Shown here: in pieces, positions 1 to 62,538 of the stretch
Numbering within the stretch: position 1 is the first letter of the stretch
Layout of the letters: the number at the start of each line of letters is the position of its first letter
IMG/VR virus record: IMGVR_UViG_3300017700_000931
Span: 256,001 to 320,000 of that record
Reading direction: 5' to 3' (one strand)
DNA length: 64,000 bases
Origin: a virus
Taxonomy: Duplodnaviria > Caudoviricetes
The notes under the pieces: generated by a model
Seen by the model: only the letters and a program-made list of their open reading frames with translations
Database searches by the model: none
What the model was told of the DNA's origin: nothing
Translations under genes and position numbers: made by a program

Positions 1-66
1 TTGGTTAATACTTTGAATAAATAATATCAGGAAACAAATATAAGTATAATATTTTAATCTACCAAA

Positions 67-420
67 TTAAAATTCAAGTTTTATTTTAGTTATTAATTGG
101 TTATCGTACATTTGTTCTTTACCCTCAGTATATTCGTATGCTTGTATAATGTATGACAACCAACTTTGTTTGTCATCAAATTCTGAGCGGTTTTCATAAT
201 CAAAATGAACATCAATAATAGTTCCATCCAATAATGTAACACTCGTCCATTCATCAGAATCATTAAAAACTATTGTTTGTTTACATTTAATGCTAGACTT
301 TGAATCTTTTTGGAATGTCTCCCAACTTTTATCTTCAAAATCCAAAACAAGTTCAGTACCTTTTTTTAATGTGTATTCTAATACAACACTTCTAAATCCT
401 AAATTTAATATCGCTTTCAT
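67..420 (-). CDS. hypothetical protein (start corrected to ATG 420)
   Basis: ORF with leader motif directly upstream of MKAILNLG. Confidence 0.8.
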   Translation of the reverse strand: MKAILNLGFRSVVLEYTLKKGTELVLDFEDKSWETFQKDSKSSIKCKQTIVFNDSDEWTSVTLLDGTIIDVHFDYENRSEFDDKQSWLSYIIQAYEYTEGKEQMYDNQLITKIKLEF

Positions 421-469
421 GGTTATCCGGTTAAATTGGTTATTTGATAAAGGGCATAAAGCCCTTTGG

Positions 470-640
470 TTAACCACCCATATCCTCTGAAACCTCAGAC
501 ATCAATGTGCCGTCTTCAAATTCTTTGCCTTCTGCAAGGGCTTCAATTTCCTCACCCTCAATAGAACGAGTAACGGCTCTTAATGCTGACAAAATTTGTT
601 CCTTTGTTCCTGAACCAGTAATTTTAATTTGTAATTGCAT
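470..640 (-). CDS. hypothetical acidic 56-aa protein (not in ORF track)
   Basis: MQLQIKITGSGTKEQILSALRAV...; directly behind promoter 666-697, stop abuts hairpin 449-467. Confidence 0.75.
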   Translation of the reverse strand: MQLQIKITGSGTKEQILSALRAVTRSIEGEEIEALAEGKEFEDGTLMSEVSEDMGG

Positions 641-823
641 ATCGTTTGTTTTAGTTTGACTGATACAAATATAATACTATATTTTCAATTGACCAAATTA
701 TTTTGAACTTATTTTATGAATTAATTTCACAACAATTGGTTGAACATAAGAAAGTGTTATAATCATTCCGCTCACAATTAAAATAAAGTACATAGGTTGA
801 GTTTTTGATAAGGGTTTTACCCC

Positions 824-1622
824 TTATTCTTCTTCCTCAACATCAATAATATCGGAGGCAGAAATATCTGAAATGAAAATCTTTGGTTCTGCTTCCAGTT
901 CACTAGCACCAACAATATTATTCATTACCTCTAAGGTGTCCTGAACCTCTGTCAAATCATTCCCACCCTCTTTAATTAACAATTGAATTTGTACGGTTAC
1001 TGTAATTGCTTTCATATCTGGTTACTTTTATTAGTTTGATAAAGGGGTTTCCCCCTTTATTTAGTTAGTCGTATAAGCAATTGAAACAACAATATATTCT
1101 TCATCGACTGTATGTGTGTTAACCTCAACCGCAACATAGAAATCACTCTCAGTTTGGGCTTCAACACATTCGTGAATAATATCAATTGGTTGGTCATAAG
1201 TTTCAAGTGTTTCTTCAATCACTCGTTCTGCTTCTGAAACGAAACCTTTTTCTAAGGTATCCTCTCTATACTGTTCTACATTTTCTGTGAAGTCAGCATC
1301 AAAGAATAATTCTAAGAGGCTTTCTTTTGTAAGTTTACCATCTTCACCGAATCGAACAATTACTAATTTTGAATTTAATGTTACTTGCATATCTGGTTAC
1401 TTTTTAGTTTGATATTGGGGGCAATTGCCCCCAAATTTAAATACTTTCTTCAAAATTATGGTCAATAGCTTGGTCAACAATACCAGAGTCAACAACTTTA
1501 ACGCCATCAGTATTGGTTGTAATTGTACAATCAAGTTCTTCAGCAATTTTTCTCAATTGTTTTGGGGTTACTGGTTTGTCAAGTTCAACTCGTACATTTA
1601 AATAAAAAACATTCACTTTCAT
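824..1622 (-). CDS. three small acidic hypothetical proteins (824-1015, 1061-1390, 1437-1622)
   Basis: Each ATG preceded by the GTAACCAGAT-type leader; each stop abuts a hairpin. Confidence 0.8.
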
Positions 1623-1658
1623 ATCTGGTTACATTTTTAGTTTGATAAAAGAGGGGAA

Positions 1659-1778
1659 TTAATTCCACCCCTTTTTGTGCTTATCCTTTCGGTTATAAGC
1701 CTTTTTGTTTTTTTGCACCATTGGGCGTACCGCTTGGTGAATTTCGTGTTGGGTGAGTTGAATTGTTTGCAGTTTCAT
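1659..1778 (-). CDS. 39-aa basic peptide, ArfA-like (not in ORF track)
   Basis: Hand-translated MKLQTIQLTQHEIHQAVRPMVQKNKKAYNRKDKHKKGWN; own promoter 1804-1835; R-x-x-V-x-KNKK...Y-x-RK-x-KH resembles ArfA. Confidence 0.6.
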   Translation of the reverse strand: MKLQTIQLTQHEIHQAVRPMVQKNKKAYNRKDKHKKGWN

Positions 1779-1846
1779 AATTGGTTATTTTAGTTTGACA
1801 TGACAAATATAATACAATATTTCTTATCCACCAAACTTTTTTGCAA

Positions 1847-2179
1847 TTATTTTTTACTTAAATCGTAAGGCACTGCATCCAAGCCATATTCACAGGTATA
1901 TCCAATGGCTTCCAATTTCTCCACTAAGGTAGCACAAGCCTCATAAGTCATCGTATCAGTTGAGTACTTGTCTAATACTGCTTTAACCTCGTCCGGCAAG
2001 TTGTCGTAATCCTCAAATAAATCGGTACTTTGGTTAAATAACTCCAACCATTGTTTGGTTGTATATAAACCATATTTATTTCTACATTCGTCAATACTTA
2101 GATTGAATCTAATTGACGCAATATTCAAATATTTTCTGTAGGTTGAAATTGCTGGTAATTTGTCCTCTATTTGGTTCAT
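1847..2179 (-). CDS. hypothetical protein
   Basis: 110-aa ORF with leader motif. Confidence 0.8.
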   Translation of the reverse strand: MNQIEDKLPAISTYRKYLNIASIRFNLSIDECRNKYGLYTTKQWLELFNQSTDLFEDYDNLPDEVKAVLDKYSTDTMTYEACATLVEKLEAIGYTCEYGLDAVPYDLSKK

Positions 2180-2222
2180 ACTGGTTACATTTATTAGTTT
2201 GATAAGGGGTTAACCCCCTTGC

Positions 2223-2435
2223 TTATAATCTCTCAATTATAAGCATTGACTTTTTGAATTCATGGTTACACCCATCACATGCCATACTGAAATAAATTTC
2301 ATTATCGTGACCCAATAATTTGTATGCTTTTTTTAAATCTGGGTCAGCCTCCTGAATTTGGTTTTTACTGGAATGTGCCAATGGTTCGTTGTCGGTTGTA
2401 CGCACCATGAAAGAATTGCATTTTGGACAGTTCAT
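2223..2435 (-). CDS. zinc-ribbon protein (start corrected to 2435)
   Basis: CPKC ... CDGC pairs. Confidence 0.7.
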   Translation of the reverse strand: MNCPKCNSFMVRTTDNEPLAHSSKNQIQEADPDLKKAYKLLGHDNEIYFSMACDGCNHEFKKSMLIIERL

Positions 2436-2482
2436 AAAGTTGTTTATTAGTTTGATATTTGTGGGGCAATTGCCCCACAAAT

Positions 2483-2767
2483 TTAATAAACACAAATTTC
2501 CTCCATCTTAATATCCTCATAGAAATCTGAATCCTCAGCCTCAATTAAAACGTGTGCTGACAATACAACGGTTGTGCTTAATTGAAGACTTTCAACTGTA
2601 ACAATTTTCACCGGACAAGAATAATGTTCTTTCAATGCCAAAACTAGTTTTGGCTCAACAATTTCTCTTAGGTTAATTTTTTTAGTATCGTTGACTTCAC
2701 CTAAGTCAATAACACCAACATTTTTTTGACCTTCAATCGCAATGTTTACAAAGATTCTTCTTTTCAT
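2483..2767 (-). CDS. hypothetical protein (start corrected to 2767)
   Basis: The track N-terminus MYYIC is the translated promoter; real ATG follows the leader. Confidence 0.8.
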   Translation of the reverse strand: MKRRIFVNIAIEGQKNVGVIDLGEVNDTKKINLREIVEPKLVLALKEHYSCPVKIVTVESLQLSTTVVLSAHVLIEAEDSDFYEDIKMEEICVY

Positions 2768-2840
2768 AATGGTTACGTTTATTAGTTTGACAATACAAAT
2801 ATAATACAATATTTGATATAAACCAAATTATTTGTAATTA
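2761..2840. repeat. 80-bp exact direct repeat, copy 1 (copy 2 at 8182-8261)
   Basis: Base-by-base identity over leader, promoter and first codons. Confidence 0.9.
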
Positions 2841-2870
2841 ATTTTGATAAAGGGGTTTCCCCCTTTGTGG

Positions 2871-3380
2871 TTATCTGTAATACTCCCTTACAGTATAATC
2901 AATGGTTTGCTTGAACGCATCCAATTCCTTTTGCATCTCGTTTAGCTTAGCCAGTTTTTTCAATTCAGCATCCAAATCAATGGTTTTATCCAAATCGTAC
3001 TCAGTGACTAGTTTATCGTAATCCTCGACGCTAATCAATAAGCCGTCTTTAATTTGACCAATTGCAATTCTTCGCTCAAAGTATTCTGTATATGCAGTGC
3101 TTGGACGAACGTCATAAGAACCACCGAATTTGCATATCTTGAAATTAATATACATACATCCATGAGCAAAGGTAATATACCCAACGGAACGCTCACCTTT
3201 TTCATCCTTTACAATAAGAGGTAATAACGAATCAGCACTTTTAACCAGTACGTTACTTGCTTTAACAATTTTTTTGCCTAGGAAAAATACTAAGGCGGGT
3301 AGAATTTGTTTTAGGGTTTCTTTAATTGCGGTATTCAATTCCTTGTTACCTTCAATCACAATGTTAATAGGTGTTTTCAT
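2871..3380 (-). CDS. hypothetical protein
   Basis: 169-aa ORF behind promoter 3415-3446. Confidence 0.85.
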   Translation of the reverse strand: MKTPINIVIEGNKELNTAIKETLKQILPALVFFLGKKIVKASNVLVKSADSLLPLIVKDEKGERSVGYITFAHGCMYINFKICKFGGSYDVRPSTAYTEYFERRIAIGQIKDGLLISVEDYDKLVTEYDLDKTIDLDAELKKLAKLNEMQKELDAFKQTIDYTVREYYR

Positions 3381-3469
3381 AATTTAGTGGTTTAGTTTAT
3401 TAGTTTGACTGGTACAAATATAATACTATATTTTTAATCTACCAAATAAAAAGTGAATTATTTTTAAAT

Positions 3470-3500
3470 AAAAAAACCCCATCCAGACCGGACAGGGTTT
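3470..3500 (-). terminator. intrinsic terminator
   Basis: AAACCC..GGGTTT stem followed by a U-run on the minus strand. Confidence 0.65.
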
Positions 3501-3537
3501 TCCTCGTGAAATTGTCGTCAAACTATAACCACGGAAA

Positions 3538-3732
3538 TTATTTTGTTTTGTTATGGTTGTCCATAACTTGTTTATACTCTTTCATCAGGTCGTCGTGCAT
3601 ACCCTCATTGAGCGGTTTTAACTTAGCAAAAAAGAATCCACAATTTGCCTCCGCAGGTGTTTTGCTACCAGACTTTATTGCTCTCATTCCGGCTCTAATT
3701 TTATCAATACTCATTTCCTCGGTTGTCTTCAT
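3538..3732 (-). CDS. hypothetical protein
   Basis: 64-aa ORF with variant promoter (TATATTTA). Confidence 0.75.
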   Translation of the reverse strand: MKTTEEMSIDKIRAGMRAIKSGSKTPAEANCGFFFAKLKPLNEGMHDDLMKEYKQVMDNHNKTK

Positions 3733-3780
3733 AGTGGTTTATTGGTTTGTTGATAAATATAAGACTATATAAATAAAGTT

Positions 3781-3813
3781 GGGTCCGTAACTGGGTAGGG
3801 TTGTTACGGACCC
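3781..3813 (-). terminator. hairpin / probable terminator
   Basis: GGGTCCGTAAC/GTTACGGACCC 11-bp stem downstream of 3836-3985. Confidence 0.7.
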
Positions 3814-3835
3814 TCTTTATTAGTCAAACTAAAAA

Positions 3836-3985
3836 CTACTTAAAGTATTTTGCGTAATATGGTCTACGTTTTTGTTTGTGCTTGTATTCCTTTACCAATT
3901 GTGGCAACACAATTCGTTTAGGTAATACGGCACTGAATTGAACAGGTGAAAATAATAACAAGAATGCGAAAATAATTGCTTTCAT
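3836..3985 (-). CDS. 49-aa protein with signal-peptide-like N-terminus and basic tail (not in ORF track)
   Basis: MKAIIFAFLLLFSPVQFSAVLPKR...KRRPYYAKYFK. Confidence 0.6.
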   Translation of the reverse strand: MKAIIFAFLLLFSPVQFSAVLPKRIVLPQLVKEYKHKQKRRPYYAKYFK

Positions 3986-4010
3986 AATAATTTGGTTTTT
4001 GTGGTTAATA

Positions 4011-5171
4011 TTAATTCATTGCAAGGTTGTAAGCCTTAGAAATCTTGGTGAGGTTTTCATTAATAATACGAATATCATTCTTAATATCATTAATGGTAAT
4101 ATCACCCGTACCTTTAAGCCCATCAAACATTTTGGTGGCTTCAATTAACATTCGGTTACCATGTCGTTTTGCGACCATTAAAGCGAATAAATCCATATCC
4201 ATCAAAAAATGTTCTGGGGTCTGGTTTGTCTCTTCCAGAAACAACTCAGTTAATTGGTTTGCCATATTGGTTAATTTAGTTTGACTGGATAAAGGTAAGA
4301 ACAACTTTTCAATATTCCAAATTATTCTTACCTTTTTTTATGCTTTTTTCAATTTCAGTCGTTGAATGTTATTTGTGTGCTTATCTTTGAAGCGTCTCCA
4401 ACCAAGACCAGACCAATAAGCATAACATTCAACAAAATCATCCTTTGCCTCATCTTTATAGGCTTGTGGGTCGAGTTCTTTTAACACCTCTCTGAATTCA
4501 TCAAACTCTGCTTTAGAAATTCCATCAGTATATTGAATTGGGTCTGTGTCAGTTGGGAGTGTCCCGAATGGGCATTCTTTGTCATCCTCAATGCTTTCAA
4601 CATTATCAGACAAATCATGGTCAAGTTGTGTTTGAAGTCCTTTTTTTGCTTTTGAAAGCGTTTCTTCTCTTGTCGCAGTTTCATCAACAATAACACGAGT
4701 TAAAAGAGTTACATGTACTAGTTTGGCTACTTTCATATTTGGTTACTTTTAGTTTGATAATGGTGGGGCGGTTAAGCCCCCACCAATTTACTCTTCTTCT
4801 TCAATAGCTTCTAACCCTGCATCCTCACCATGCACTCCAATAGCAAACCAAATTTGTTCCATTGTGGCTTCATTTTTTAAAGCGTTGTGTAGAACTTTTT
4901 GTGCCTCTTCATCAGTGCATTTGAATTTCGCTTTAACATCAGCAACACTCCAAAGGTTATCAGTATAGAATCCGGCTTTTCTCAATAGTTCTTTAGCCAA
5001 TTCAACATCACTTTTTACCACATCGAATTCAGTGTTTTTCACTTTAATCCAAATATCTTTTCTTGGGTGTTTAACACTCATCAAAGTGTCAGAAAATTCC
5101 AGTGGAAGCCCTTGTGGAAATACAACACCGAATTTTTTACTTACTTTTTGTTTTTTTAGAATAACTTTCAT
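4011..5171 (-). CDS. three hypothetical proteins (4011-4265, 4338-4736, 4788-5171)
   Basis: ORFs with leader motifs; starts corrected to the ATG after each leader. Confidence 0.8.
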
Positions 5172-5214
5172 AGTATGTGTTTTAGTTTGACGATACAAAT
5201 ATAATACTATATTT

Positions 5215-5694
5215 CTAATTAACCAAATTTTTTATAATCTTTTTTACACTTTTTTTTATTTGGGGAATTTGGTTACGTCGGAATCTAGGATTCCAGCCCG
5301 TTTCACATAAGGCAATAGATTCCATTGTCGACCAAGAAATATTGGTTATTGCAGTATATCCAGACCAACCACTGTTGGCTAAATCTTTATAGACTCCTTT
5401 AGAGTCCATATAGCAAGTGCCTAATTTAACGAAACAATGGGCTAAATACATACCCTCTGAATTGAATTCAGCTAATGTGGGTTTGTTGTTCGTTTCTAAT
5501 ATTTTATTGAATTTATCCTCAGTACAATTACGACCTAACCAAACAATTTCGGCTTTATATCCGGCTTTGCAAAGTTCCTTTGCTAGTAAATAAGCAACAA
5601 TACCACATCCACCTGCATTCAGGTTAAAATAATTTCCTTCAAGTTCATCAGGGAGTAGTACGTTAAGTTTGGTTAAGACTTTTTTGGTTACCAT
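5215..5694 (-). CDS. putative papain/transglutaminase-fold enzyme
   Basis: NAGGCGIVA ... AHCFV ... YMDSKG give a Cys-His-Asp order typical of this fold. Confidence 0.45.
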   Translation of the reverse strand: MVTKKVLTKLNVLLPDELEGNYFNLNAGGCGIVAYLLAKELCKAGYKAEIVWLGRNCTEDKFNKILETNNKPTLAEFNSEGMYLAHCFVKLGTCYMDSKGVYKDLANSGWSGYTAITNISWSTMESIALCETGWNPRFRRNQIPQIKKSVKKIIKNLVN

Positions 5695-5741
5695 ATTTGG
5701 TTAGGTTTTTGATAAATGGGGGTATTGCTACCCCCATTCTT

Positions 5742-6554
5742 TTATTTGAAACGTTTCAAAATGTCCTTAACGCTTTCGCTTTTCAGGGCAATGTACAACT
5801 CAATCAATTTGGTTGCTTCGTCGCTTTTGTCCTCACGTTTGTCAAGGGCTTCAACAACCTCTTTCAATTTTTGCATTGGGCTTTTTGCTGTCAAAGTAGC
5901 AACGTGTTTTGTTGTCGCTTTTTTCGGTGCTTTGCCAGTTTCAACTGCCGTTGCTTTTGCTGAATCAATTGCCTCGGTAACAATTTTCAATTGCTCATCA
6001 GCATTTTTTGTTTGCTTCACAATTTGAACAACTGTACCACCAGAAATCAAACCTTCAATTACGAAGTTTTTAATTTGTTTCCCAACGTTGGCAAGTGACA
6101 ACAAGTTGTAAATGTGTGGAACTGACTTCGCAATTTTTTGTGAAATCTCTTCTGGTTTGTAGTGCATTGCAACAAGGCGTTTAATTGCCTCAGCTTGCTC
6201 CACTTCATTCAGGGCTTTTTGCCCCGTACCAGTCACAATCATTGTGAAAATCTGGTCTTCCTCATTCCCTGTGTAAGGCGCAACCTCAACGTAAGGAATT
6301 GACTCACCTCTTTTCAAAAGAATCTGAATCGCTGCGAAACGTCTGTGACCGTCAACCAATTCGTAGGTATCTTCACCACGAGTTTTTTTAGCCTTCAATG
6401 GAACTTCCAGACCAATTGAGGCAATTGAATCTGCTAGGGCTTCCAAATCACCCATGTCAAGACGCACGTTGAATCCCTCACGTACCACAATGTTGCGTGG
6501 GTCAACAAGCATTGTATCTTTTCTTTTTGTAACTAATACTGCTCCTTTTTTCAT
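5742..6554 (-). CDS. parB: ParB/RepB/Spo0J family protein (ParB N-terminal domain + HTH)
   Basis: FNVR, LADSI..GL..PL, YELVDGHRR, LNEVEQAEAIKRL and the HTH EEISQKIAKSVPHIYNLLSL. Confidence 0.85.
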   Translation of the reverse strand: MKKGAVLVTKRKDTMLVDPRNIVVREGFNVRLDMGDLEALADSIASIGLEVPLKAKKTRGEDTYELVDGHRRFAAIQILLKRGESIPYVEVAPYTGNEEDQIFTMIVTGTGQKALNEVEQAEAIKRLVAMHYKPEEISQKIAKSVPHIYNLLSLANVGKQIKNFVIEGLISGGTVVQIVKQTKNADEQLKIVTEAIDSAKATAVETGKAPKKATTKHVATLTAKSPMQKLKEVVEALDKREDKSDEATKLIELYIALKSESVKDILKRFK

Positions 6555-6656
6555 AACTTTTTTGGTTTTTAATTAATAATGATGTGACAAATATAATAGG
6601 ATATTTTTAATTGACCAAATAATATTATAATTATTTTCGTCAAAGTTATTAACAAT

Positions 6657-8778
6657 TTAGAAATTCGTAGTGTTTTTGCCGGGTTCAGGAGCATTCTTTT
6701 TTATTACTAGGAACGCATTGCCGAAAATATTGCTAGTGAATCCAACAATAATATGTTCACCCTTTGGAGTGTCAACAACCAAATTTCCTTTTGGGTCAAT
6801 CGAAAGTTGTGAAAGTTCTTTGTTATGGTTCATAATAATATTATTTTGATAAAGGGCTTTAAAGCCCTTTGGTTAAGTGTGAATTACAAATCTGCTCTCT
6901 GACCCATAATACGAATATAATAACGGGTAAGTATTGCTAATCTCACTCAAATATCTCACTTCAATGTTAATGGTTGCACCATCCTTGCAAATTGCTTTAT
7001 ACTTGTTGTGCAAGTGTTCCAAGGCTAATTGAATTAAGTTTACATCGGTTTCCTTTAACACCGTATCAAATACAACTGGTTTCCCATCGGTTTTAACTTC
7101 AACACTTACTTTTAGAATATCGTTTTTCATAGTTGGTTACATTCATTGGTTTGATAAGGGGTATTAACCCCTATTATTATTATTTTACATTATATTCAAT
7201 AATTCTTAAACTTTTGAATGGCGCACCAGTAACCGACATACCACCACTCGAATTTGTTTTAAGAATTTCAAGGTGACAAGGAATAAAACCAGTTGACTTA
7301 CCTACAATAAATCTTCTCTTTTCTCCGTATTTGTCAACAACCTCAACTCTGTGACCTTCTTTACCAATTAATTCAGGTATTAACTGGGACTGACTTCTCC
7401 AACCAGTTTTATCATTTCTATCACTAGCAATTTTTACTAAATTAGTATAATTGGTGTATGCTTTTTTTGTACCTTTTTTCTTTGGAATTAAATCCTCCAT
7501 TCCAAGTTCTTTGGCTAAGGCAATGGTTCTATCCTGACATACATCAAAACCAAGGCAAGTGAATCCACTACCACAATTTAATACAAATAACTGTTGTTCT
7601 TTATTTATTGAATTTAACATATCTAATAGTTTTAGTTTGACAGGACAAATATAATACAATATTTGATATAAACCAAATTATTTGTATTCTTTTTTAAAAT
7701 AAGTTTTTAACTCAGCTAATGTGAATAACTTTTGGTATTGTGTACATTGTGTTCTATAACCCCCATCCACCGGAATGACGTTATCAGACTTTAACCATTT
7801 GTTGAATTCTTTCATAGGATAAAGGAGGTCTTTCGACCTCCCTTGTAACTTGGTAATGAATTTGTACATTCCATACCTAAGCCTTGTTTTTAATCTCAGT
7901 CCATTCACCGTTCCACTCTGTGCCGTTCAAATACCATGTACCTTGACGTTGGCTAATTCTTACGTTAGGTAGGCCGTTCAAACGCTCCTTAGTGGTGTTA
8001 CTTTTCCAACCTGCATTTGTAATGCTTAGTTTGGACTTTGTTAGACTGGTCAATTCTCTTTTTGCAATTACATTGCCATGCAATAAAAGTGTTGTAACTT
8101 TATCAGAAACTTCAACACTCATGTTCGCTTTTTTGAAAGGAGTCCCAGTCAAAAATGCCTCAATACTTTCTTCAGTAATTTTTTTCATAATGGTTACGTT
8201 TATTAGTTTGACAATACAAATATAATACAATATTTGATATAAACCAAATTATTTGTAATTATTTTTGATAAAGGGTTTTACCCCCTTACCATGCTTCCCC
8301 GTCACCAATAAATAATTTACCATTCTGGAAACTTGGCTCATATTCTTTATGGTCTGCAACCATATCACCAGTTTCATAGAATGTACTTAAATCAGCTAAT
8401 TCTAATTCGTGACAAACACAAACAACAAAGGTATCCCCACCATGTATAGGGTGTTCAACAAATTGAATTTTCTGACCTAATGAATTAACCATTTCACTGT
8501 AAACAGTTGGGTTCAATTCCATTAATTTTTTATAGTTTAACATGGTATAGAATTTAGTTTGACAATAGAATATTATTTTAACTACATTGACAAGTTCCAT
8601 AATCACAACAACAAGTACTACTATATACTTGACAAGTGTTACACCAATTCATTTCACCAGTGTGGCATAAGTGACATATTTTAGTATGGTCATGGCATGC
8701 CTCACATAAATCAGGGTTACCATCATGTGAATTATTAACAATTGTTAATTCAATATTACAGTCTTCGCAGTGATTCAT
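6657..8778 (-). CDS. run of small early hypothetical proteins (6657-6833, 6873-7130, 7180-7620, 7678-7869, 7877-8188, 8286-8543, 8578-8778)
   Basis: Starts corrected past promoter-derived MYYIC artefacts; 8578-8778 has 13 Cys and 6 His in 66 aa. Confidence 0.75.
8182..8261. repeat. 80-bp exact direct repeat, copy 2
   Basis: Identical to 2761-2840. Confidence 0.9.
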
Positions 8779-8891
8779 ATTGGTTTAGTTTGACGATACA
8801 AATATAATACTATATTTCTAATTGACCAAATAATATTATAATTATTTTCTTATTTATACTCATTCTAAATTAAAAAATAAATGCAAAAAAG

Positions 8892-8923
8892 TTTGGTGGA
8901 ACGAAATATTATGCTTACCTTTG
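8892..8923 (+). promoter_or_regulatory. plus-strand promoter with no downstream ORF
   Basis: TTTG 8892-8895, TACCTTTG 8916-8923, 20-nt spacer. Confidence 0.8.
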
Positions 8924-9000
8924 TCTTGTCGGTTGGAAACAGAGACAGGTCAGGTGCGACAATCCTGAGAGAGTAGACTCCGTCACGCCCTATAACCAAA
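8924..9000 (+). ncRNA. candidate small RNA, twin copy 1
   Basis: GC-rich island behind a promoter; shares GAGAC(A/G)GGTC and TGAGAGAGTAGACTCC with 10241-10312. Confidence 0.5.
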
Positions 9001-9080
9001 TCCACCCATTTTAAAAAAAGCTACAAAGGTAATACTTAATTTTGATATATCCTAATTATTTAACATTTACTTATTAACAC

Positions 9081-9111
9081 AAAAAAAGGGGTAGTTGTTG
9101 AAAACTACCCC
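9081..9111 (-). terminator. intrinsic terminator of the DUF932 gene
   Basis: GGGGTAGTT/AACTACCCC 9-bp stem then a 7-U run on the minus strand. Confidence 0.85.
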
Positions 9112-9129
9112 CTCAATAATTAGGAATTC

Positions 9130-10038
9130 TTAAATTTTAATTCCGGCGTAATCTAAGGCGAATGCCAGACTTTCTTGGTTGGTACGGTAGTTTGTACCAA
9201 CTGTCAAACTCTCAATTCGACCATTCTCACGTTTTGGTGCTGACTTGTCGTGCGTTGTCCAACGGGTTACTCCCGAATGAAGTCCCCAAAGGTTTTGCCC
9301 CTTTTGGTTCATCTCAATTTCAATGGCGTTGTATAATGACTCCATCGCATTCATTGAGCGGGTTGACTTGTCAATCAATTCGCTTGTCATTGTACGGTCA
9401 AAGCCTAAAATGTGCTTTACCATTTTGTTAGCCAATTCTTTGCTAACTTTGTTCGACTGGAACGCATTGTAAATCTCAATCATTCTCAGGCTCTCAGAAA
9501 GTGACAATTCAATCAATGAAGGAATCGTAGCCATTTTTTCAACCAAGTTAGCTGAATGTCTCCATTTAGCCTGACCAGAACGGTAGAAACGAAAGAACTG
9601 GTTTTGACATGACATTGTTAAGTCACCAATACCAACTGACAATCCGGTGCTACCGTCGTTAGAGTCAATAATGGTCACATAACGTTTAATGCTATCCTCA
9701 CCAACTTTTGACATACCGTCAACGGCTAATTGAATAAACACTTTACGACCACCATCAAGCGCACCTGCTTTTGAAACTGACAACTCACCGAATTTGTTCA
9801 TTCCTGTTAATACCAGTTCAACCAATTCGTCGTTTTGACTCACCACATACGAACCTTTAACAGTATTCAGAATCTCACCGCTCTTGTCATTGTATAGACC
9901 GAAATAATCGCTCTTTACATTATCCACGCTTTGAACACCCTCTGGTGAGGTAATAATACGTGGAGCAACCAATGGCAATTTTTCAATGCGGAAATCTAAA
10001 CCGAACTGAGCTAAAATTTGTTGTGCTTTTTCTTTCAT
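9130..10038 (-). CDS. DUF932 / LGT_TIGR03299-type phage-plasmid protein
   Basis: GLDF..EK.PL, Y.V.QN, AGAL.GGRKVF, DSNDGS, SCQNQ, RH, NLWGL..GVT motif order. Confidence 0.75.
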   Translation of the reverse strand: MKEKAQQILAQFGLDFRIEKLPLVAPRIITSPEGVQSVDNVKSDYFGLYNDKSGEILNTVKGSYVVSQNDELVELVLTGMNKFGELSVSKAGALDGGRKVFIQLAVDGMSKVGEDSIKRYVTIIDSNDGSTGLSVGIGDLTMSCQNQFFRFYRSGQAKWRHSANLVEKMATIPSLIELSLSESLRMIEIYNAFQSNKVSKELANKMVKHILGFDRTMTSELIDKSTRSMNAMESLYNAIEIEMNQKGQNLWGLHSGVTRWTTHDKSAPKRENGRIESLTVGTNYRTNQESLAFALDYAGIKI

Positions 10039-10208
10039 AATAAGGAGTTAATTTAAGTTAGTAATTTATTTGACTGGTACAAATATAAGATAGTATTTCC
10101 GAATAAACAAATATATTATAGTATATTTTCAATTTATTTTTAAAATCCTAACGTTTATGCGGGTTTGAGTTAGTGAAATAAAATAATACGAAAATATATG
10201 CTTTTTTA

Positions 10209-10240
10209 TTTGGTAGATTGAAATAAAGTTCTTATCTTTG
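10209..10240 (+). promoter_or_regulatory. plus-strand promoter with no downstream ORF
   Basis: TTTG 10209-10212, TATCTTTG 10233-10240. Confidence 0.8.
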
Positions 10241-10312
10241 TTTTGTCAGTGGTGAATAACTGAGACGGGTCGACCAGAAAAGTTGAGAGAGTAGACTCCA
10301 CTGTGCCTTATA
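10241..10312 (+). ncRNA. candidate small RNA, twin copy 2
   Basis: Homologous to 8924-9000; ends pair (CAGTGG 10247-10252 / CCACTG 10298-10303). Confidence 0.5.
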
Positions 10313-10427
10313 TTTTTTTACACATGAATTTTCGACCTGTATAATATTTGACATGACCAAATAATTTACACAAAAGTTATTAACAATTATTTTGTTAATA
10401 ACTTTGATGAAAAAAGTTACATAAAAA

Positions 10428-10459
10428 TTTGGTAGAACCGAATTAATGTATTATCTTTG
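10428..10459 (+). promoter_or_regulatory. plus-strand promoter with no downstream ORF
   Basis: TTTG 10428-10431, TATCTTTG 10452-10459. Confidence 0.8.
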
Positions 10460-11016
10460 TTATGTACATTCCATATCTGCATAAACGGCAGACAGCCACC
10501 CCCTACCCTTTACACTGGGTTTTAGGGGGTAGAGTCGTTACACCTCTTTTTTAGGGGGTACCGAAAGGAACCGTTACATACCTATGTTAATAGCCTGTTT
10601 TTGCCTTACTGCAAAGATACTAAAAATATCTGACAACTGCAAGGAATAGAGGATATTAGACCACGCTTTTTATAAAAATATAATTGCTCAAAAACTTGCA
10701 TATTTCAAAAAATTTGTGTAAAGTATTGAGCGTGTTTATGTTGTACTTCATATTTTTTAGAGGTATCCGGTGCATCACATATCCAATAAGCAGGGTTTTT
10801 GGTATAATTTACCACGATTTACCACTTTCTACCATTTAATGACAACGTGCTAACTCAAGTACAAAAAGGACGCATAACCTATCTGAATGCGGATGCCATA
10901 TTACACAAGATGTAGCACACAATGGGCCTTGAGCTGGGGTATACACAAATGTGTACTAGGGTATGTCATGGTACAGGGTGTCCTGTGGGATTTAGGGTAC
11001 ACAAATGTGTCCTTAC

Positions 11017-40162: not shown

Positions 40163-40236
40163 GGGCCTTTAGCTCATTCGGTTAGAGCAACTGACTCATA
40201 ATCAGTAGGTGGTTGGTTCGAATCCGGCAAGGCCCA
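40163..40236 (+). tRNA. tRNA with CAT anticodon, probably tRNA-Ile2 (lysidine type); elongator Met not excluded
   Basis: Full cloverleaf GGGCCTT/AAGGCCC-A, GCTC/GAGC, ACTGA-CTCATAA-TCAGT, TTCGAAT; C4-G69 and C5-G68 are the known TilS determinants; no encoded CCA. Confidence 0.92.
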
Positions 40237-40326
40237 CAATTAAATGTTATCCTCAGCCAAATCTAGGTATTAAATTAGACTTTTGGCCAATGATAGGAAT
40301 TAGTATTTTGTAAAAAATGTGATAAT

Positions 40327-43905: not shown

Positions 43906-44091
43906 AATATGGAGGTAGCTGAAAATCCTAGATAAGAGTAGGCAAAACAAATAAATCACATTATGAAAACTTTTTTTAAAAATGTATTTACGATTGCAAC
44001 AGGAATTATTGTTGCACTTGTAATTATAGGTGGGATTGTTGTGGCTGTCCTTTATGCTACAAATCCTAATCTAATGAATTATTAGTAAATC

Positions 44092-44240: not shown

Positions 44241-47200
44241 ATGCTAAACACAAACAGAAGATTCAGAGTAGTATTTCTTGATAGAGAAGATGTCAAAGAG
44301 AAGGATTTCTCAATGAAAGAATTATTGCTGGATGATGATGGTACAGAACTTTGTTACGCAGCACAAGATATTGCTGATGACATTCTTGACCTAAAATTGT
44401 GGGAAACATTATTCTTCCAGACAAACAGAGATGACAAGAATGCAAAAGGATTGATTATTCGGATTGACTAAGGGGCCAAAAACCCTTTATCATTAAAAAA
44501 ATAATTTATGAAAATTGAAAATTTAGGTAAGTTCAGAGTAGGTGGTTCAATTAACACCCAATTCGAAACCGGATTGGCGTTGGAGCGAATTATGATTGCC
44601 AGTGGTGAACGAGTAAATGGTCTTACTAGTTTTCTTACCACCCTAGAATTTTTTGGTCATGTTATTCTCATATTAACTGGTCTGTTTATTCTTGCTGCTT
44701 ATGGTTTGATTTATTTAGTTTTATTTTTTATTGAGGTTTATAAATATATAACCGGATATGATAAAAGACGTGAAGCTAATGCTAGTCGATTGACTGAAGA
44801 AGAAATTGATAAACGATTAGCAAAGTTTGAGATGACCGAAGAGGAAGAAAAAGAAGTTGAAAATTTTCATTAAAATATAATTTATGGCTGAAACATTATT
44901 ACCAATAAATTCTTGTAAAGAATGTCCTTTCTTTAAAACAGGAAACCAATGGTCTAGTGATGGTTGGGACCGGATGGAGGACTGGATTTGTACTAAACAT
45001 GAACCAGAAAAGGTAATTCAAGGTTCAGTTGAATGGCATGAAGAAAAAAGGATTAATATTCCTGATTGGTGTCCATTGCCTAATGATAAATTTAAAAAGG
45101 CTATTATTGAAGAATTGGTTGGTGTAGTTCTTCAGAACCCTGATATGGTTTCTGATACTTTTGTCTATAAAGATAAATTCACCTTTACCAGATTAACAAA
45201 GGACATGCTTTGGTATGTAACTTACGATAACAAAATTATTGCCCATGGGCAATACCGTCATGATATTGAGCAATGGATTGATATTGCTTATAAATTAAAA
45301 TAAATTTGAAATAACTTAAAATTATTGTATGAAACATAGAGTGATAATGGAAGCTATTCTGGAGGCACACCAAAACGTAGAAAAATATGGTGAAACTTGG
45401 TATGTCCTGAATGATGATTTCTTCTCCGTAGTTAAAGAGTCATACTTCATTACTGATGAAGGTGTGAGAAAAGATAAACCATTTGTTTCTTTGTATAACA
45501 CTGATGACAAGTTTTATGGTAGTCGTGGTGTTGGACATATTATTGAATATGTGAATGGTGAAGTAAAACCCACCATGCTTGATATTGAAATTAATAGCAT
45601 TTGGGATGACTTTGAACAACCCTATGGTGACCGAGTGAAAGAGGTTGGTAGAAATATGGTAATGATGGGTACTATTGGTCACGGACATACACTTGGTCTT
45701 CACCACCTATTACCTATAGCTAGGTCAGCTCATAGTCATGGTATGGACCATACCATAATTAATAAAGACGTGATTGAGGTTTATGATATGCCACGCCCAG
45801 AGTTGCCAAAAAATTTGTTGAAAACCATTCAAAGTGTGGATACAATATACGATGATAGTGAAAAACCTACACCGAAAGATATTGAAAAAATACGCAAAAA
45901 GCTCAGAATGAAACGTAAGAAAAAAGGTAAGAAAACTCACCGCAAAAAATAATTTTTTACATGAAAGTTATTTTAACTGAAATAGAATTGACTAACGGAA
46001 CGTTTACTGAAAAACAATTAAGCGTTTTGCATAAGTATTATGCGAGTGCTCGATTTAAAACATTGGATGATTTTGCTCTGAACACCTACGATAATGGATA
46101 TTCCGAAGACAAAGAGAAAAATATTGAACTTCAGAAAATAAGGTTCGACGAGTATTTAGCAAAGGACACTAAAGAACTGTATGGGTATTCACATTCTTTT
46201 ACTTGTGATATTAATTTATTCTTAACCGACTTCCCAAGCCTATTATTTAAAATAAAAGGTACTAAGGAAGTCATGGTAGACGTTGATAAATCTGATGCAT
46301 TAAAATTACAGCAAAAAGCCATCGATGAGATGGTTAAAAATCAACAAAAAAGGCTAGAATCAATGATGAAGTCTTTTGTGATTATGTCACAAAATATTGC
46401 TGAAAACCTTAAGGTTGAAACTCTAAACCAAAAATGTGATGTGCATGTTGGTGGTGGTCTTTTATTAACAATTAATGAAACTCTTCTATTGGAGGATGCA
46501 TGTACTGACCGATTACAGACCGAACTAAATTCTGGCTGGCGTATTATTGCAGTTAGTGTACAAGCTGATTGCCGGAGACCAGACTATATCTTAGGTAGAT
46601 TCAATCCAACTCTTGAAATTGATGGTAGAGCTAAAAGATAATTCATATTTTATTTGGTAGAACCAAATAATTGTATTATATTTGTCAAAACATTATTAAA
46701 ATCGACCGTATGAATTTAGAGGAAATTAAACAAGCTATTGCTGAACAACGTATGAAAAGTTCACGCCATGCTGTTGAAATTGATAACCTACAAAATAAAA
46801 ACATTAAGGACTTCACAACAGAAGACACGGTTTACTTGACCCTAAAGGGTAAAGATAATAATACAACTTACCTTTGTCAATTTATTAAATTCGAAAATGG
46901 TAGAGTCTTTGGTAAAGCATTGCAAGCAATGATTAACCCTGATACCTATTACTACCAAATTGATAAAGGATTAGATATTAACGTTAAACCAGAAGACGCT
47001 AGTTTAAAGGGTAAACTACCTAGTGATGATTATTCACATTACCACCATTGCAATTCCATTGGTCGTTTCTATGATGAAAACCTAGAAGCACCACTTGATG
47101 ATATGAATGTCAAAACACATGAGAGTTATGGTGTTATTGGATTCAGCAAAGTTTCAACCAGAAACATGACGTTATTTGGTAGCAGCATTAAGCATGACCA

Positions 47201-62507: not shown

Positions 62508-62538
62508 ACTACGAGGGGTAAAACCCTCATCAAGAATT

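What the first reader, a model, noticed from the sequence alone, without database searches (positions are those of the whole stretch)
449..8288. Cassette-like early region: promoter and GC hairpin are interchangeable in front of one fixed leader
Seen: most genes in the first 10 kb start with (A/G)TCAAACTAA plus an A-rich leader often ending GTAACCA(G)-x-ATG. Upstream of that motif is either a -33/-7 promoter or one of 13 GC hairpins placed at the previous stop codon and followed by ATCAAA. Stems vary in sequence but stay paired; loops include GAAA (1048-1051, 2856-2859) and GCAA (5725-5728) on the transcribed strand, and several lack a U-tract. The same design recurs on the plus arm (44470-44487, 62513-62528). 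Known analogues: RNase III sites in T7 and SPO1 early regions and PeSL cassettes of T4-like phages. Inference: processing at the hairpin base gives each gene the same 5' end as a primary transcript, and/or the motif is a crossover point for gene shuffling.
Basis: partly seen in the sequence, partly recalled or inferred. Interest (0 to 1): 0.8.

Follow-up and report, generated by a model that had tools for sequence, protein, structure and literature searches.

The report
PeSL-like early gene cassettes, Bacteroidota phage
A 362-kb T4-type phage of a Bacteroidota host strings about 26 small early genes together with three repeated spacer parts (GC hairpin, host-type promoter, fixed A-rich leader). 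Related phages have swapped genes at these spacers, as already described for T4-like phages, so the design is real but mostly of a known kind.

Summary
TCAAACTAA occurs 19 times in the window against 1.8 expected, and 16 copies head genes on the minus strand of 651-8793. Fourteen GC hairpins sit at stop codons, and 13 of them are followed by ATCAAA.

The genome is a complete 362.5-kb virus record with a T4-type capsid and portal, Bacteroidota -33/-7 promoters and no Shine-Dalgarno sites.

- **Optional promoter:** the promoter is a 57-bp insert between two TCAAA repeats. The junction at 1039-1060 equals the junction at 2849-2866 minus that insert.
- **Short T-runs:** hairpin-only junctions have T-runs of 0-4 (median 3). 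Hairpins followed by a promoter or ending an operon have a median of 7 (p = 2e-6).
- **Orthologous site:** the site after ParB is a 6-7 T terminator, plus a promoter in three of the four relatives. Here it has 3 T and no promoter.
- **Gene shuffling:** only 11 of 26 genes have homologues in the closest long relative. Homology blocks end in the hairpin, promoter or leader.

Best reading: this is a PeSL-type shuffling array with leaky, trimmed terminators and a translation leader that starts at the transcription start. RNA processing is untested and not needed to explain the sequence. T7-style RNase III sites are unlikely, because stems are 5-11 bp. The scan has found PeSL-like arrays before on other phage DNA.

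The parts
67..10111 (-). Early-gene array inside the window: 26 small genes (31-302 aa). There are no paralogues among them, and most of the ten scanned have no family hit. The array continues below the window start to about genome 253.4 kb.
8266..8291 (-). Hairpin + promoter junction: stop codon in the stem, loop GTAAAA, 3 T. TCAAA at 8264-8268 and again at 8207-8211, 57 bp apart.
7821..7844 (-). Hairpin-only junction (loop GAAA, 3 T), followed by ATCCT and the ATG at 7815. In L022 the orthologous site is a 7-T terminator.
7157..7172 (-). Hairpin-only junction, loop TAAT, 2 T, then ATCAAACC leader.
6851..6870 (-). Hairpin-only junction, loop TTAA, 3 T, then ATCAAAATAAT and ATG. It keeps the promoter-upstream A-rich piece but has no promoter.
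5714..5739 (-). Hairpin-only junction after ParB, loop GCAA, 3 T. The orthologous hairpins in L021, L028, L031 and L033 have 6-7 T. L021, L028 and L033 also have a promoter; in L031 the hairpin ends the operon.
4761..4785 (-). Hairpin-only junction, 9-nt loop, 2 T, then ATCAAACTAA leader. It is absent from L021, where the two flanking genes are fused into one 191-aa ORF.
4291..4335 (-). Long hairpin that encloses a promoter-like site (-33 TTTGG in the loop, -7 TACCTTTA in the 3' arm) before GTCAAACTAA. It is conserved in L021.
3781..3813 (-). 11-bp hairpin before a decayed -7 box (TATATTTA). L021 has an unrelated hairpin at the same place between conserved flanks. An inverted copy of the leader motif lies at 3824-3832 on the plus strand.
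3471..3503 (-). Canonical terminator (14-bp stem, 7 T) followed by a promoter.
2849..2866 (-). Hairpin + promoter junction (AAAGGGG, loop GAAA, CCCCTTT). TCAAA at 2843-2847 and 2786-2790, 57 bp apart. The module is a near copy of the one at 8183-8296.
2457..2482 (-). Hairpin-only junction, loop AATT, no T-run. The stop codon plus the 5' arm spell a -7-like box, TAAATTTG.
2204..2220 (-). Hairpin-only junction, loop GTTAA, 2 T, then ATCAAACTAA leader.
1647..1675 (-). Imperfect hairpin-only junction, 4 T. The stop codon of the 39-aa gene lies in the loop. It is conserved in L021 with a different 3' arm.
1415..1434 (-). Hairpin-only junction, loop AATT, no T-run. A -7-like TAAATTTG overlaps the 5' arm.
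1039..1060 (-). Hairpin-only junction with the same hairpin as 2849-2866. It equals that junction minus the 57-bp promoter segment.
809..826 (-). Hairpin-only junction (stop codon in the stem, loop GTAAAA, 2 T), then ATCAAAAAC.
449..467 (-). Hairpin-only junction, loop TTTAT, 3 T, then ATCAAATAACC.
9085..9114 (-). Canonical terminator (12-bp stem, 7 T) after the DUF932 gene. It is the only hairpin in the region that the standard sense-strand terminator scan accepts.
10080..10111 (-). Promoter of the DUF932 gene (-33 TTTG to -7 TATATTTG), with leader variant GTCAAATAA.
8799..8830 (-). Early promoter. The predicted start is the G before TCAAACTAA (8785-8793).
8217..8248 (-). Early promoter inside the 57-bp optional segment.
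7646..7677 (-). Early promoter that overlaps the stop codon of the upstream gene.
6588..6619 (-). Promoter of ParB with the other leader class (TCACATCATTA), which is shared with plus-arm promoters.
5196..5227 (-). Early promoter. The upstream stop codon lies inside its spacer.
3415..3446 (-). Early promoter after the 7-T terminator.
2796..2827 (-). Early promoter inside the 57-bp optional segment.
1804..1835 (-). Early promoter heading a run of five genes separated by four hairpin-only junctions.
666..697 (-). Early promoter.
35..66 (-). Early promoter at the window edge. It drives the non-coding/tRNA-like stretch below the window.

Best explanation
This is the hyperplastic early region of a T4-type jumbo phage of a Bacteroidota host. 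It is built like the PeSL (promoter-early stem-loop) arrays of T4-like coliphages, but written in Bacteroidota signals.

Each junction is assembled from up to three parts:
1. A GGGG...CCCC stem-loop placed at the upstream stop codon.
2. An optional 57-bp segment holding an AT-rich upstream piece and a host sigma-A -33/-7 promoter. This segment is bounded by two TCAAA repeats.
3. A 16-24 nt leader that begins at the predicted transcription start, the G before TCAAACTAA. The leader is G-free, with A at -3 and at -11 to -13. That makes it an SD-less Bacteroidia-type translation initiation region.

Hairpin-only junctions are derived from terminator + promoter junctions by loss of the promoter segment. 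That loss leaves A-TCAAACTAA. Their T-runs have been trimmed to 4 or fewer, so the host polymerase mostly reads through. The hairpins therefore act as leaky terminators or attenuators, and probably also as protectors of the 3' end of the upstream message. Promoterless genes are expressed from the promoter upstream.

The repeated 40-100 bp modules are the substrate for homologous recombination, which adds, deletes, moves and replaces single genes.

Shown: the anatomy, the 57-bp relation, the link between T-run length and context, the state of the relatives, and the mosaic gene content.

Inferred: read-through, attenuation, the transcription start position and the translational role of the leader.
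For: Phage type: T4-type capsid (E = 3e-62) and portal (E = 6e-82) in a complete DTR virus record.

Signals: 11 consensus -33/-7 promoters. The -7 box positions T-12 to G-5 (PMC6847099, PMC9723704) place +1 on the G before TCAAACTAA and give 16-24 nt leaders. In the array leaders A is 0.69-0.88 at -11 to -13 and 0.65 at -3, with almost no G. These positions include the positive determinants reported for Flavobacterium johnsoniae (-3, -12, -13; PMC6847099). Genome-wide there is no SD signal.

Promoter as insert: the junction at 1010-1069 aligns to 2762-2875 with an identical hairpin and leader and one 57-nt gap, which is the promoter, bounded by TCAAA.

T-runs: the median is 3 (n=16, maximum 4) at hairpin-only junctions and 7 (n=20) at hairpin+promoter or operon-end sites (Mann-Whitney p = 2e-6; p = 1.4e-4 using this phage and L021 only). 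None of the hairpin-only sites passes a standard sense-strand terminator scan, whereas 9085-9114 does.

Orthologous sites: after ParB, L021, L028 and L033 have 6-7 T plus a promoter and L031 has 6 T at an operon end, while this phage has 3 T and no promoter. After the Kyano_Gp96-like gene, L022 has 7 T and this phage has 3 T plus a downstream gene.

Stems differ between orthologous sites while the flanks are kept.

Shuffling: there are no paralogous proteins in the array, and 11 of 26 genes are shared with L021, with block ends in the modules. L015 and L016 show the same mosaic at promoter modules.

PeSL definition: it includes an AT-rich upstream piece, a host-type early promoter and a polyG/polyC stem-loop acting as terminator/attenuator (PMC2839356).
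Against: There are no transcript data, so read-through, termination efficiency and the start site are all inferred. How the Bacteroidota polymerase responds to a 3-U hairpin is not known to me.

Two hairpin+promoter junctions in this phage (8266-8291, 2849-2866) also have only 3 T, so the link between T-run and context is a tendency and not a rule.

In most hairpin-only sites the few T are fully paired with an upstream A-run. That looks more like a plain stem-loop than a terminator.

ATCAAA follows the hairpin-only stems nearly always (15 of 16 in this phage and L021), but follows only some of the hairpins that precede a promoter. This could reflect selection on the RNA rather than the deletion route.

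The T-run samples include orthologous sites and are not fully independent.

The direction of the 57-bp change (loss or insertion) is shown only by outgroup comparison at one site, where the downstream gene also differs.
Confidence: 0.6

Rival explanations
1. Processing design. A host endoribonuclease of the RNase E/G or RNase Y kind cuts the single-stranded AU-rich stretch at the 3' base of each hairpin. Every promoterless gene then gets a monocistronic mRNA with nearly the same 5' leader as a primary transcript, and the upstream fragment is left with a protective 3' hairpin.
For: A/G-TCAAACTAA lies right after the hairpin at hairpin-only junctions and at the predicted +1 in promoter contexts. 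ATCAAA follows 15 of 16 hairpin-only stems in this phage and L021. The leader is predicted to be unpaired. The T-runs are too short for standard terminators.
Against: The shared sequence is explained by descent, through the 57-bp deletion between TCAAA repeats. Orthologous hairpins in relatives are ordinary 6-7 T terminators. Stems of 5-11 bp are too short for RNase III. No phage RNase III or RegB-like gene was found, although the RegB control search rang in no genome. No RNA data are available.
Confidence: 0.17
2. The hairpins do not affect transcription at all. They are kept as RNA stability or insulation elements: 3' exonuclease blocks for decay intermediates, or stops for antisense transcription coming from plus-strand promoters.
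For: The T-run is fully paired within a symmetric A(n)G(m)...C(m)T(n) palindrome. On the plus strand several of the same hairpins are followed by T-rich tails and pass the terminator scan. Plus-strand promoters exist inside the arm at 8916-8923 and 10233-10240.
Against: The graded relation between T-run length and the presence of a downstream promoter is what tuned termination predicts and is not expected for pure stability elements. The T-rich antisense tails may simply come from A-rich gene ends.
Confidence: 0.1
3. The GGGG...CCCC hairpin, or the 57-bp promoter with its TCAAA flanks, is the site of a dedicated DNA-level mobility system. This would be integron-like cassette recombination, or a small mobile promoter that duplicates its target.
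For: The promoter segment is flanked by 5-bp direct repeats. Promoterless ORF + 3' hairpin cassettes in series resemble integron arrays. Arbiol et al. themselves speculate about a GGGG/CCCC-binding recombination protein.
Against: No tyrosine recombinase is found in the genome, with a control search that works. Stems and loops have no common sequence beyond G-run/C-run. Homologous recombination by a T4-type replication/recombination system suffices (PMC2839356). One breakpoint lies inside a gene.
Confidence: 0.06

Closest known systems
PeSLs (promoter-early stem-loops) of T4-type phages RB49/phi1, PST/T4 and nt-1/KVP40 (Arbiol et al. 2010, PMC2839356; Comeau et al. 2014, PMC4122927)
   Same: T4-type phage. 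Hyperplastic region of small genes, most of the ten I scanned having no Pfam family. Repeated intergenic module made of the upstream stop codon, an AT-rich piece, a host-type early promoter, a GGGG...CCCC stem-loop and a translation start region. Gene gain, loss and replacement between relatives occur at the modules.
   Different: The promoter is the Bacteroidota -33/-7 type, not sigma-70 -35/-10. There is no Shine-Dalgarno site; a fixed A-rich leader starts at +1 instead. About half the junctions carry the stem-loop without any promoter and have shortened T-runs. The promoter is a discrete 57-bp unit between TCAAA repeats. Mini-circles and terminator activity are not tested here.
T4 immediate-early / delayed-early organisation, where downstream genes are reached by read-through of weak terminators (my own knowledge; review PMC2988021 listed but not read)
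   Same: Promoterless early genes lie downstream of hairpins in the same transcription unit as promoter-proximal genes.
   Different: No antitermination factor or Rho dependence can be assessed here. Timing is unknown.
RNase III processing sites between T7 early genes
   Same: Intercistronic hairpins in a phage early operon that precede each cistron.
   Different: T7 sites are roughly 20-bp irregular duplexes cut within the stem (my own knowledge). The stems here are 5-11 bp with perfect pairing and tetraloops, so the defining feature is not met.
Integron attC cassette arrays
   Same: Rows of promoterless ORFs, each with a 3' imperfect palindrome, expressed from an upstream promoter and reshuffled as single-gene units.
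   Different: There is no integrase, no conserved core site, and many cassettes carry their own promoter.

Membership tests
PeSL cassettes of T4-type phages | The host genome is a T4-type myovirus. | tested here: met
   Pfam Gp23 E = 3.4e-62 and Portal_T4 E = 5.7e-82 in the same 362.5-kb record.
PeSL cassettes of T4-type phages | Strong host-type early promoter with an AT-rich upstream region in the repeated motif. | tested here: met
   Eleven near-identical TTTGG-N19-TATTATATTTG promoters, with AAAAATAATT-like upstream pieces. They match the Bacteroidota consensus (PMC6847099). The promoter is absent from 12 hairpin-only junctions.
PeSL cassettes of T4-type phages | Stem-loop, generally polyG followed by polyC, within the motif. 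| tested here: met
   The stems have a G-run in the 5' arm and a C-run in the 3' arm (7821-7844 less cleanly) and lie in the region upstream of the -33. This is one of the five placements described in PMC2839356.
PeSL cassettes of T4-type phages | Preferential location in hyperplastic regions next to ORFans. | tested here: met
   Of the 10 array proteins scanned, 7 have no Pfam hit above the cut-off. The hairpin+ATCAA design is confined to this region of the genome.
PeSL cassettes of T4-type phages | Insertions, deletions and replacements between related phages occur at the motifs. | tested here: met
   Comparisons with L021, L022, and L015 against L016.
PeSL cassettes of T4-type phages | The stem-loop is an effective transcription terminator in vivo. 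| not testable with these tools
   Sequence alone suggests weak termination at hairpin-only sites (T-run of 4 or less).
PeSL cassettes of T4-type phages | Formation of excised mini-circles. | not testable with these tools
Canonical intrinsic terminators | GC hairpin followed at once by a 7-9 nt U-rich tract. | tested here: not met
   Hairpin-only sites have T-runs of 0-4, and none passes the 5-T-in-8 rule on the sense strand. The rule is met at 9085-9114. The hairpin at 3471-3503 has a 7-T run but is not in the scan's list.
RNase III processing sites (T7/SPO1 early regions) | Long (about two helical turns) duplex, often with an internal loop. | tested here: not met
   Stems are 5-11 bp at hairpin-only sites. 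The length requirement is from my own knowledge.
Integron cassette array | Tyrosine recombinase (IntI) encoded with the array. | tested here: not met
   PF00589 gave no match in the complete genome, and the control search rang in 14 of 14 genomes.
N4-type hairpin promoters | Phage-encoded single-subunit RNA polymerase that recognises a DNA hairpin. | tested here: inconclusive
   PF00940 gave no match, but its control search rang in no genome. Loop sizes are 4-9 nt and variable.

The most novel reading that the evidence does not exclude
The short hairpin followed by AUCAAA is a dedicated processing signal of Bacteroidota phages. A host RNase E/G- or Y-type enzyme cuts at the hairpin base and releases monocistronic mRNAs with the same optimised SD-less leader as primary transcripts. 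Promoter and hairpin would then be true functional alternatives for making one 5' end.
Probability: 0.15. Interest if true: 0.6.

Novelty: new variant of a known kind. Interest (0 to 1): 0.38.

Why it matters
The finding extends promoter/stem-loop shuffling cassettes from enterobacterial and vibrio T4-like phages to a T4-type jumbo phage of Bacteroidota, which uses different promoter and translation signals.

It also gives a clean natural series of the same junction: a 7-T terminator plus promoter, a 3-T hairpin plus promoter, and a 3-T hairpin alone. That series could be used to measure how U-tract length sets termination by the little-studied Bacteroidota RNA polymerase.

The compact promoter (57 bp) and leader (about 20 nt) are ready-made, insulated expression parts for flavobacterial or Bacteroides genetics.

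The finding does not reveal a new kind of system.

Tried and rejected
- **Close phage records:** megablast of 1-10500 against 50,697 phage records found no match.
- **Pattern scan:** a scan of viral contigs for promoter+leader gave 14 loci with single, unrelated matches.
- **ParB-based locus searches:** none were found in viral or metagenome contigs. Relatives came instead from protein look-ups.
- **Rfam:** nothing at the hairpins or leaders.
- **Phage polymerase promoter idea for the fixed leader:** no T7-like polymerase or beta-subunit hit. Four sigma-70-family genes exist elsewhere in the genome. The leader ends 2-4 nt before the ATG, so I dropped this idea.
- **RegB/RegA-like regulators of the leader:** no hits, but the control searches rang in no genome, so this is inconclusive.
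- **Integron-like recombination:** no integrase.
- **Alignment-based covariation across the five ParB 3' hairpins:** the two hairpin families are too different to be put in register. Only 2 compensatory pairs were found within one family.
- **L041/L042:** they hold a 67% homologue of the 146-aa gene but belong to a phage group with a different repeated promoter (TTGTAAC...TCGTTATAC). They say nothing about the hairpins.
- **GTAACCA as a general ribosome-binding signal:** rejected, because it is not among the enriched words upstream of starts outside the array.
- **Cryptic promoters at hairpin-only junctions:** two sites (1432-1439, 2478-2485) spell TAAATTTG across the stop codon and the 5' arm. 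About 0.4 such matches are expected by chance over all junctions, and there is no -33 at the right spacing. I keep this as a caveat.

Full report
**What the DNA is.** The window is bases 256001-320000 of a single 362,532-bp virus record with direct terminal repeats, rated complete. It is 33% GC. It encodes a T4-type major capsid protein (Pfam Gp23, E = 3e-62) and a T4-type portal (E = 6e-82). It also encodes four sigma-70-family proteins. No phage RNA polymerase, tyrosine recombinase or RNase III was detected. Its strong promoters have the Bacteroidota form TTTG / TAnnTTTG (consensus in PMC6847099 and PMC9723704). Its start codons have no Shine-Dalgarno signal, but A is enriched at -3 and at -11 to -13. 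This is therefore a T4-type jumbo phage of a Bacteroidota host.

**The observation.** On the minus strand of 67-10111 I count 26 small genes of 31-302 aa.
- TCAAACTAA occurs 19 times in the window against 1.8 expected, and 16 copies lie in front of these genes. Genome-wide, 17 of 23 copies lie in this 10-kb stretch, and the outside copies I looked at sit in contexts without a promoter or hairpin.
- Eleven junctions carry a near-identical promoter.
- Fourteen carry a GC hairpin that begins 0-4 nt after the upstream stop codon or overlaps it. Thirteen of these are followed, after 0-4 T, by ATCAAA.
- Hairpin + ATCAA is nearly absent from the rest of the genome. The two plus-arm cases exist but are looser.
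- The base before TCAAACTAA is G in all promoter contexts and A in every hairpin context of the array.
- No two of the 26 proteins are paralogues, so the repeats are purely intergenic.

**Anatomy.** There are three junction types: promoter only, hairpin + promoter, and hairpin only. In the two hairpin + promoter junctions (8266-8291 and 2849-2866) the hairpin is followed by A-TCAAA-AATAATT. This is a variant of the A-rich piece that precedes the -33 element at other promoters of this phage and of L021. The promoter ends in TATTG-TCAAA-CTAA. The two TCAAA copies are 57 bp apart.

Aligning the hairpin-only junction 1010-1069 to 2762-2875 gives an identical hairpin (AAAGGGG, loop GAAA, CCCCTTT). 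It also gives one 57-nt gap, which is exactly the promoter, and a leader with one mismatch and a small change before the ATG. Removing the segment between the repeats therefore converts one type into the other. It also explains why the hairpin type has A and the promoter type has G before TCAAAC.

Other hairpin-only junctions keep different remnants. One example is ATCAAAATAAT directly before the ATG at 6833. At 3732 the -7 box is decayed to TATATTTA, in this phage and in L021 alike. This looks like a continuum of promoter loss.

**The leader.** In flavobacteria the -7 box occupies -12 to -5. This places +1 on the G before TCAAACTAA and gives 5' UTRs of 16-24 nt, close to the 24-nt median reported for Flavobacterium psychrophilum. 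The 26 leaders are almost free of G. A is 0.69-0.88 at -11 to -13 and 0.65 at -3. These positions include those reported to promote initiation in F. johnsoniae (-3, -12, -13). The leader is predicted to be unpaired at every hairpin junction.

I read the leader as a short, optimised, SD-less translation initiation region. GTAACCA is present in 8 of 26 leaders and is not a genome-wide start signal. Other strong promoters of this phage use a different leader, TCACATCATTA. TCAAACTAA is therefore a property of this array and not of the promoter.

**Relatives.** Protein look-ups gave several contigs:
- L021, an NCBI Bacteroidota MAG contig, with DUF932 85% and ParB 79% identical.
- L020 and L022-24, with DUF932 98-99% identical.
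- L028, L031 and L033, with ParB 70-73% identical.
- L015 and L016, with DUF932 62% identical.

L021 has the same three junction types and the same leader consensus. L015 and L016 have a promoter plus a different fixed leader (TATTGTCTAATTAAAACA) in front of almost every small gene, and hardly any hairpins. The hairpin design is therefore specific to the clade of this phage and L021.

**Hairpins are trimmed terminators.** After ParB, L021, L028 and L033 have a hairpin with 6-7 T followed by a promoter, and L031 has 6 T at the end of an operon. This phage has 3 T, no promoter and a different downstream gene. After the Kyano_Gp96-like gene, L022 has a 7-T terminator. This phage has a different hairpin with 3 T and a promoterless gene behind it.

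Over all sites, hairpin-only junctions have T-runs of 0-4 (median 3, n=16). Hairpins followed by a promoter or ending an operon have a median of 7 (n=20). The Mann-Whitney p is 2e-6, or 1.4e-4 using only this phage and L021. A standard terminator scan accepts 9085-9114 on the sense strand but none of the hairpin-only sites. Up to four such hairpins lie in series between promoters (1835 to 697), so they cannot be efficient stops if the distal genes are to be expressed.

Stems differ at orthologous positions while the flanks are conserved, so the structure is what is kept. I conclude that these are terminator-derived stem-loops tuned down to let transcription pass. Attenuation and 3'-end protection are inferred and not shown.

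**Shuffling.** Only 11 of the 26 genes have a homologue in the 10 kb of L021. One cassette (terminator + promoter + the 169-aa gene at 3380) sits at a different place, and many genes are replaced. By my reading, 11-12 of 13 informative block ends fall in the hairpin/ATCAAA, the promoter or the leader, while intergenic DNA is about 18% of the array. The exception is a fusion in L021 of the first 60 codons of gene 5171 to gene 4736. That fusion removes a hairpin and a leader.

Against L022, identity drops from 96% to 74% at the DUF932 stop codon, and the next gene is in a different position. The L020 contig ends inside a promoter. An assembly break at a repeated module would explain this, but that is inference. 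L015 and L016 differ by reordered gene-sized blocks that end in promoter modules.

**Comparison with what is known.** Arbiol et al. 2010 and Comeau et al. 2014 describe PeSLs in T4-like phages. These are roughly 100-bp repeats in hyperplastic regions, composed of the upstream stop codon, an AT-rich piece, a host-type early promoter, a GGGG...CCCC stem-loop acting as terminator/attenuator, and the ribosome site. They mediate insertion, deletion and replacement of ORFans and can form mini-circles.

Every sequence-testable feature is met here. The differences are:
- Bacteroidota promoter and translation signals.
- The frequent promoterless stem-loop junction with a shortened T-run.
- The discrete 57-bp promoter unit between TCAAA repeats.

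RNase III sites of T7 are a poor match, because the stems here are 5-11 bp. Integron arrays are a loose analogue without an integrase.

**Verdict.** The processing half is untested and not required by the sequence. This is a new variant of a known kind. Earlier notes of this scan report PeSL-like arrays in several coliphage and Salmonella phage windows, which agrees with this classification. I did not use those notes as evidence.

Noticed in passing
window 8892-9000 and 10190-10320, plus strand: Two paralogous promoter-driven elements of about 70-90 nt with no ORF flank the DUF932 gene, antisense to the array. They share a 16-nt block, TGAGAGAGTAGACTCC. Similar GAGTAGACTCC-containing elements lie next to DUF932 or ParB genes in L015, L016, L022, L025, L028 and L031. 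There is no Rfam hit and no folding signal (z = -0.2 and +0.8).
   Followed up: partly
window 1659-1778, minus strand: A 39-aa gene has its stop codon in the loop of the hairpin at about 1647-1675. The arrangement is conserved in L021 (37 aa, 68% identity), with a different 3' arm of the hairpin.
   Followed up: partly
window 2762-2875 and 8183-8296, minus strand: Two near-identical hairpin + promoter + leader modules of about 110 bp form direct repeats around a 5.4-kb block of the array. They are an obvious substrate for deletion or circle formation.
   Followed up: partly
window 4291-4335, minus strand: A promoter-like site sits inside an 11-bp hairpin, with the -33 in the loop and the -7 (TACCTTTA) in the 3' arm. 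It is conserved in L021, where gene calling places it inside an ORF.
   Followed up: partly
window 4788-5171 and 4338-4736; L021 6526-7101: L021 encodes one 191-aa protein made of the first 60 residues of gene 5171 joined to gene 4736. This phage has two genes with a hairpin and a leader between them.
   Followed up: partly
genome 255.2-255.7 kb (just below the window start), minus strand: tRNA-like and highly structured GC-rich sequence lies directly downstream of the promoter at 35-66. It is partly conserved in L021 (9954-10847).
   Followed up: no
L041 and L042 (JGI metagenome contigs): Another phage group carries a 67% homologue of the 146-aa gene in a long array. There nearly every small gene is preceded by a different repeated motif, TTGTAACTTTTT-N9-TCGTTATAC. 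This is probably a promoter for another sigma factor or host.
   Followed up: no
window 43909-43944, plus strand: There is an Rfam DUF805b RNA motif hit (41.7 bits, above the gathering score), and a tRNA-Met at 40163-40237.
   Followed up: no
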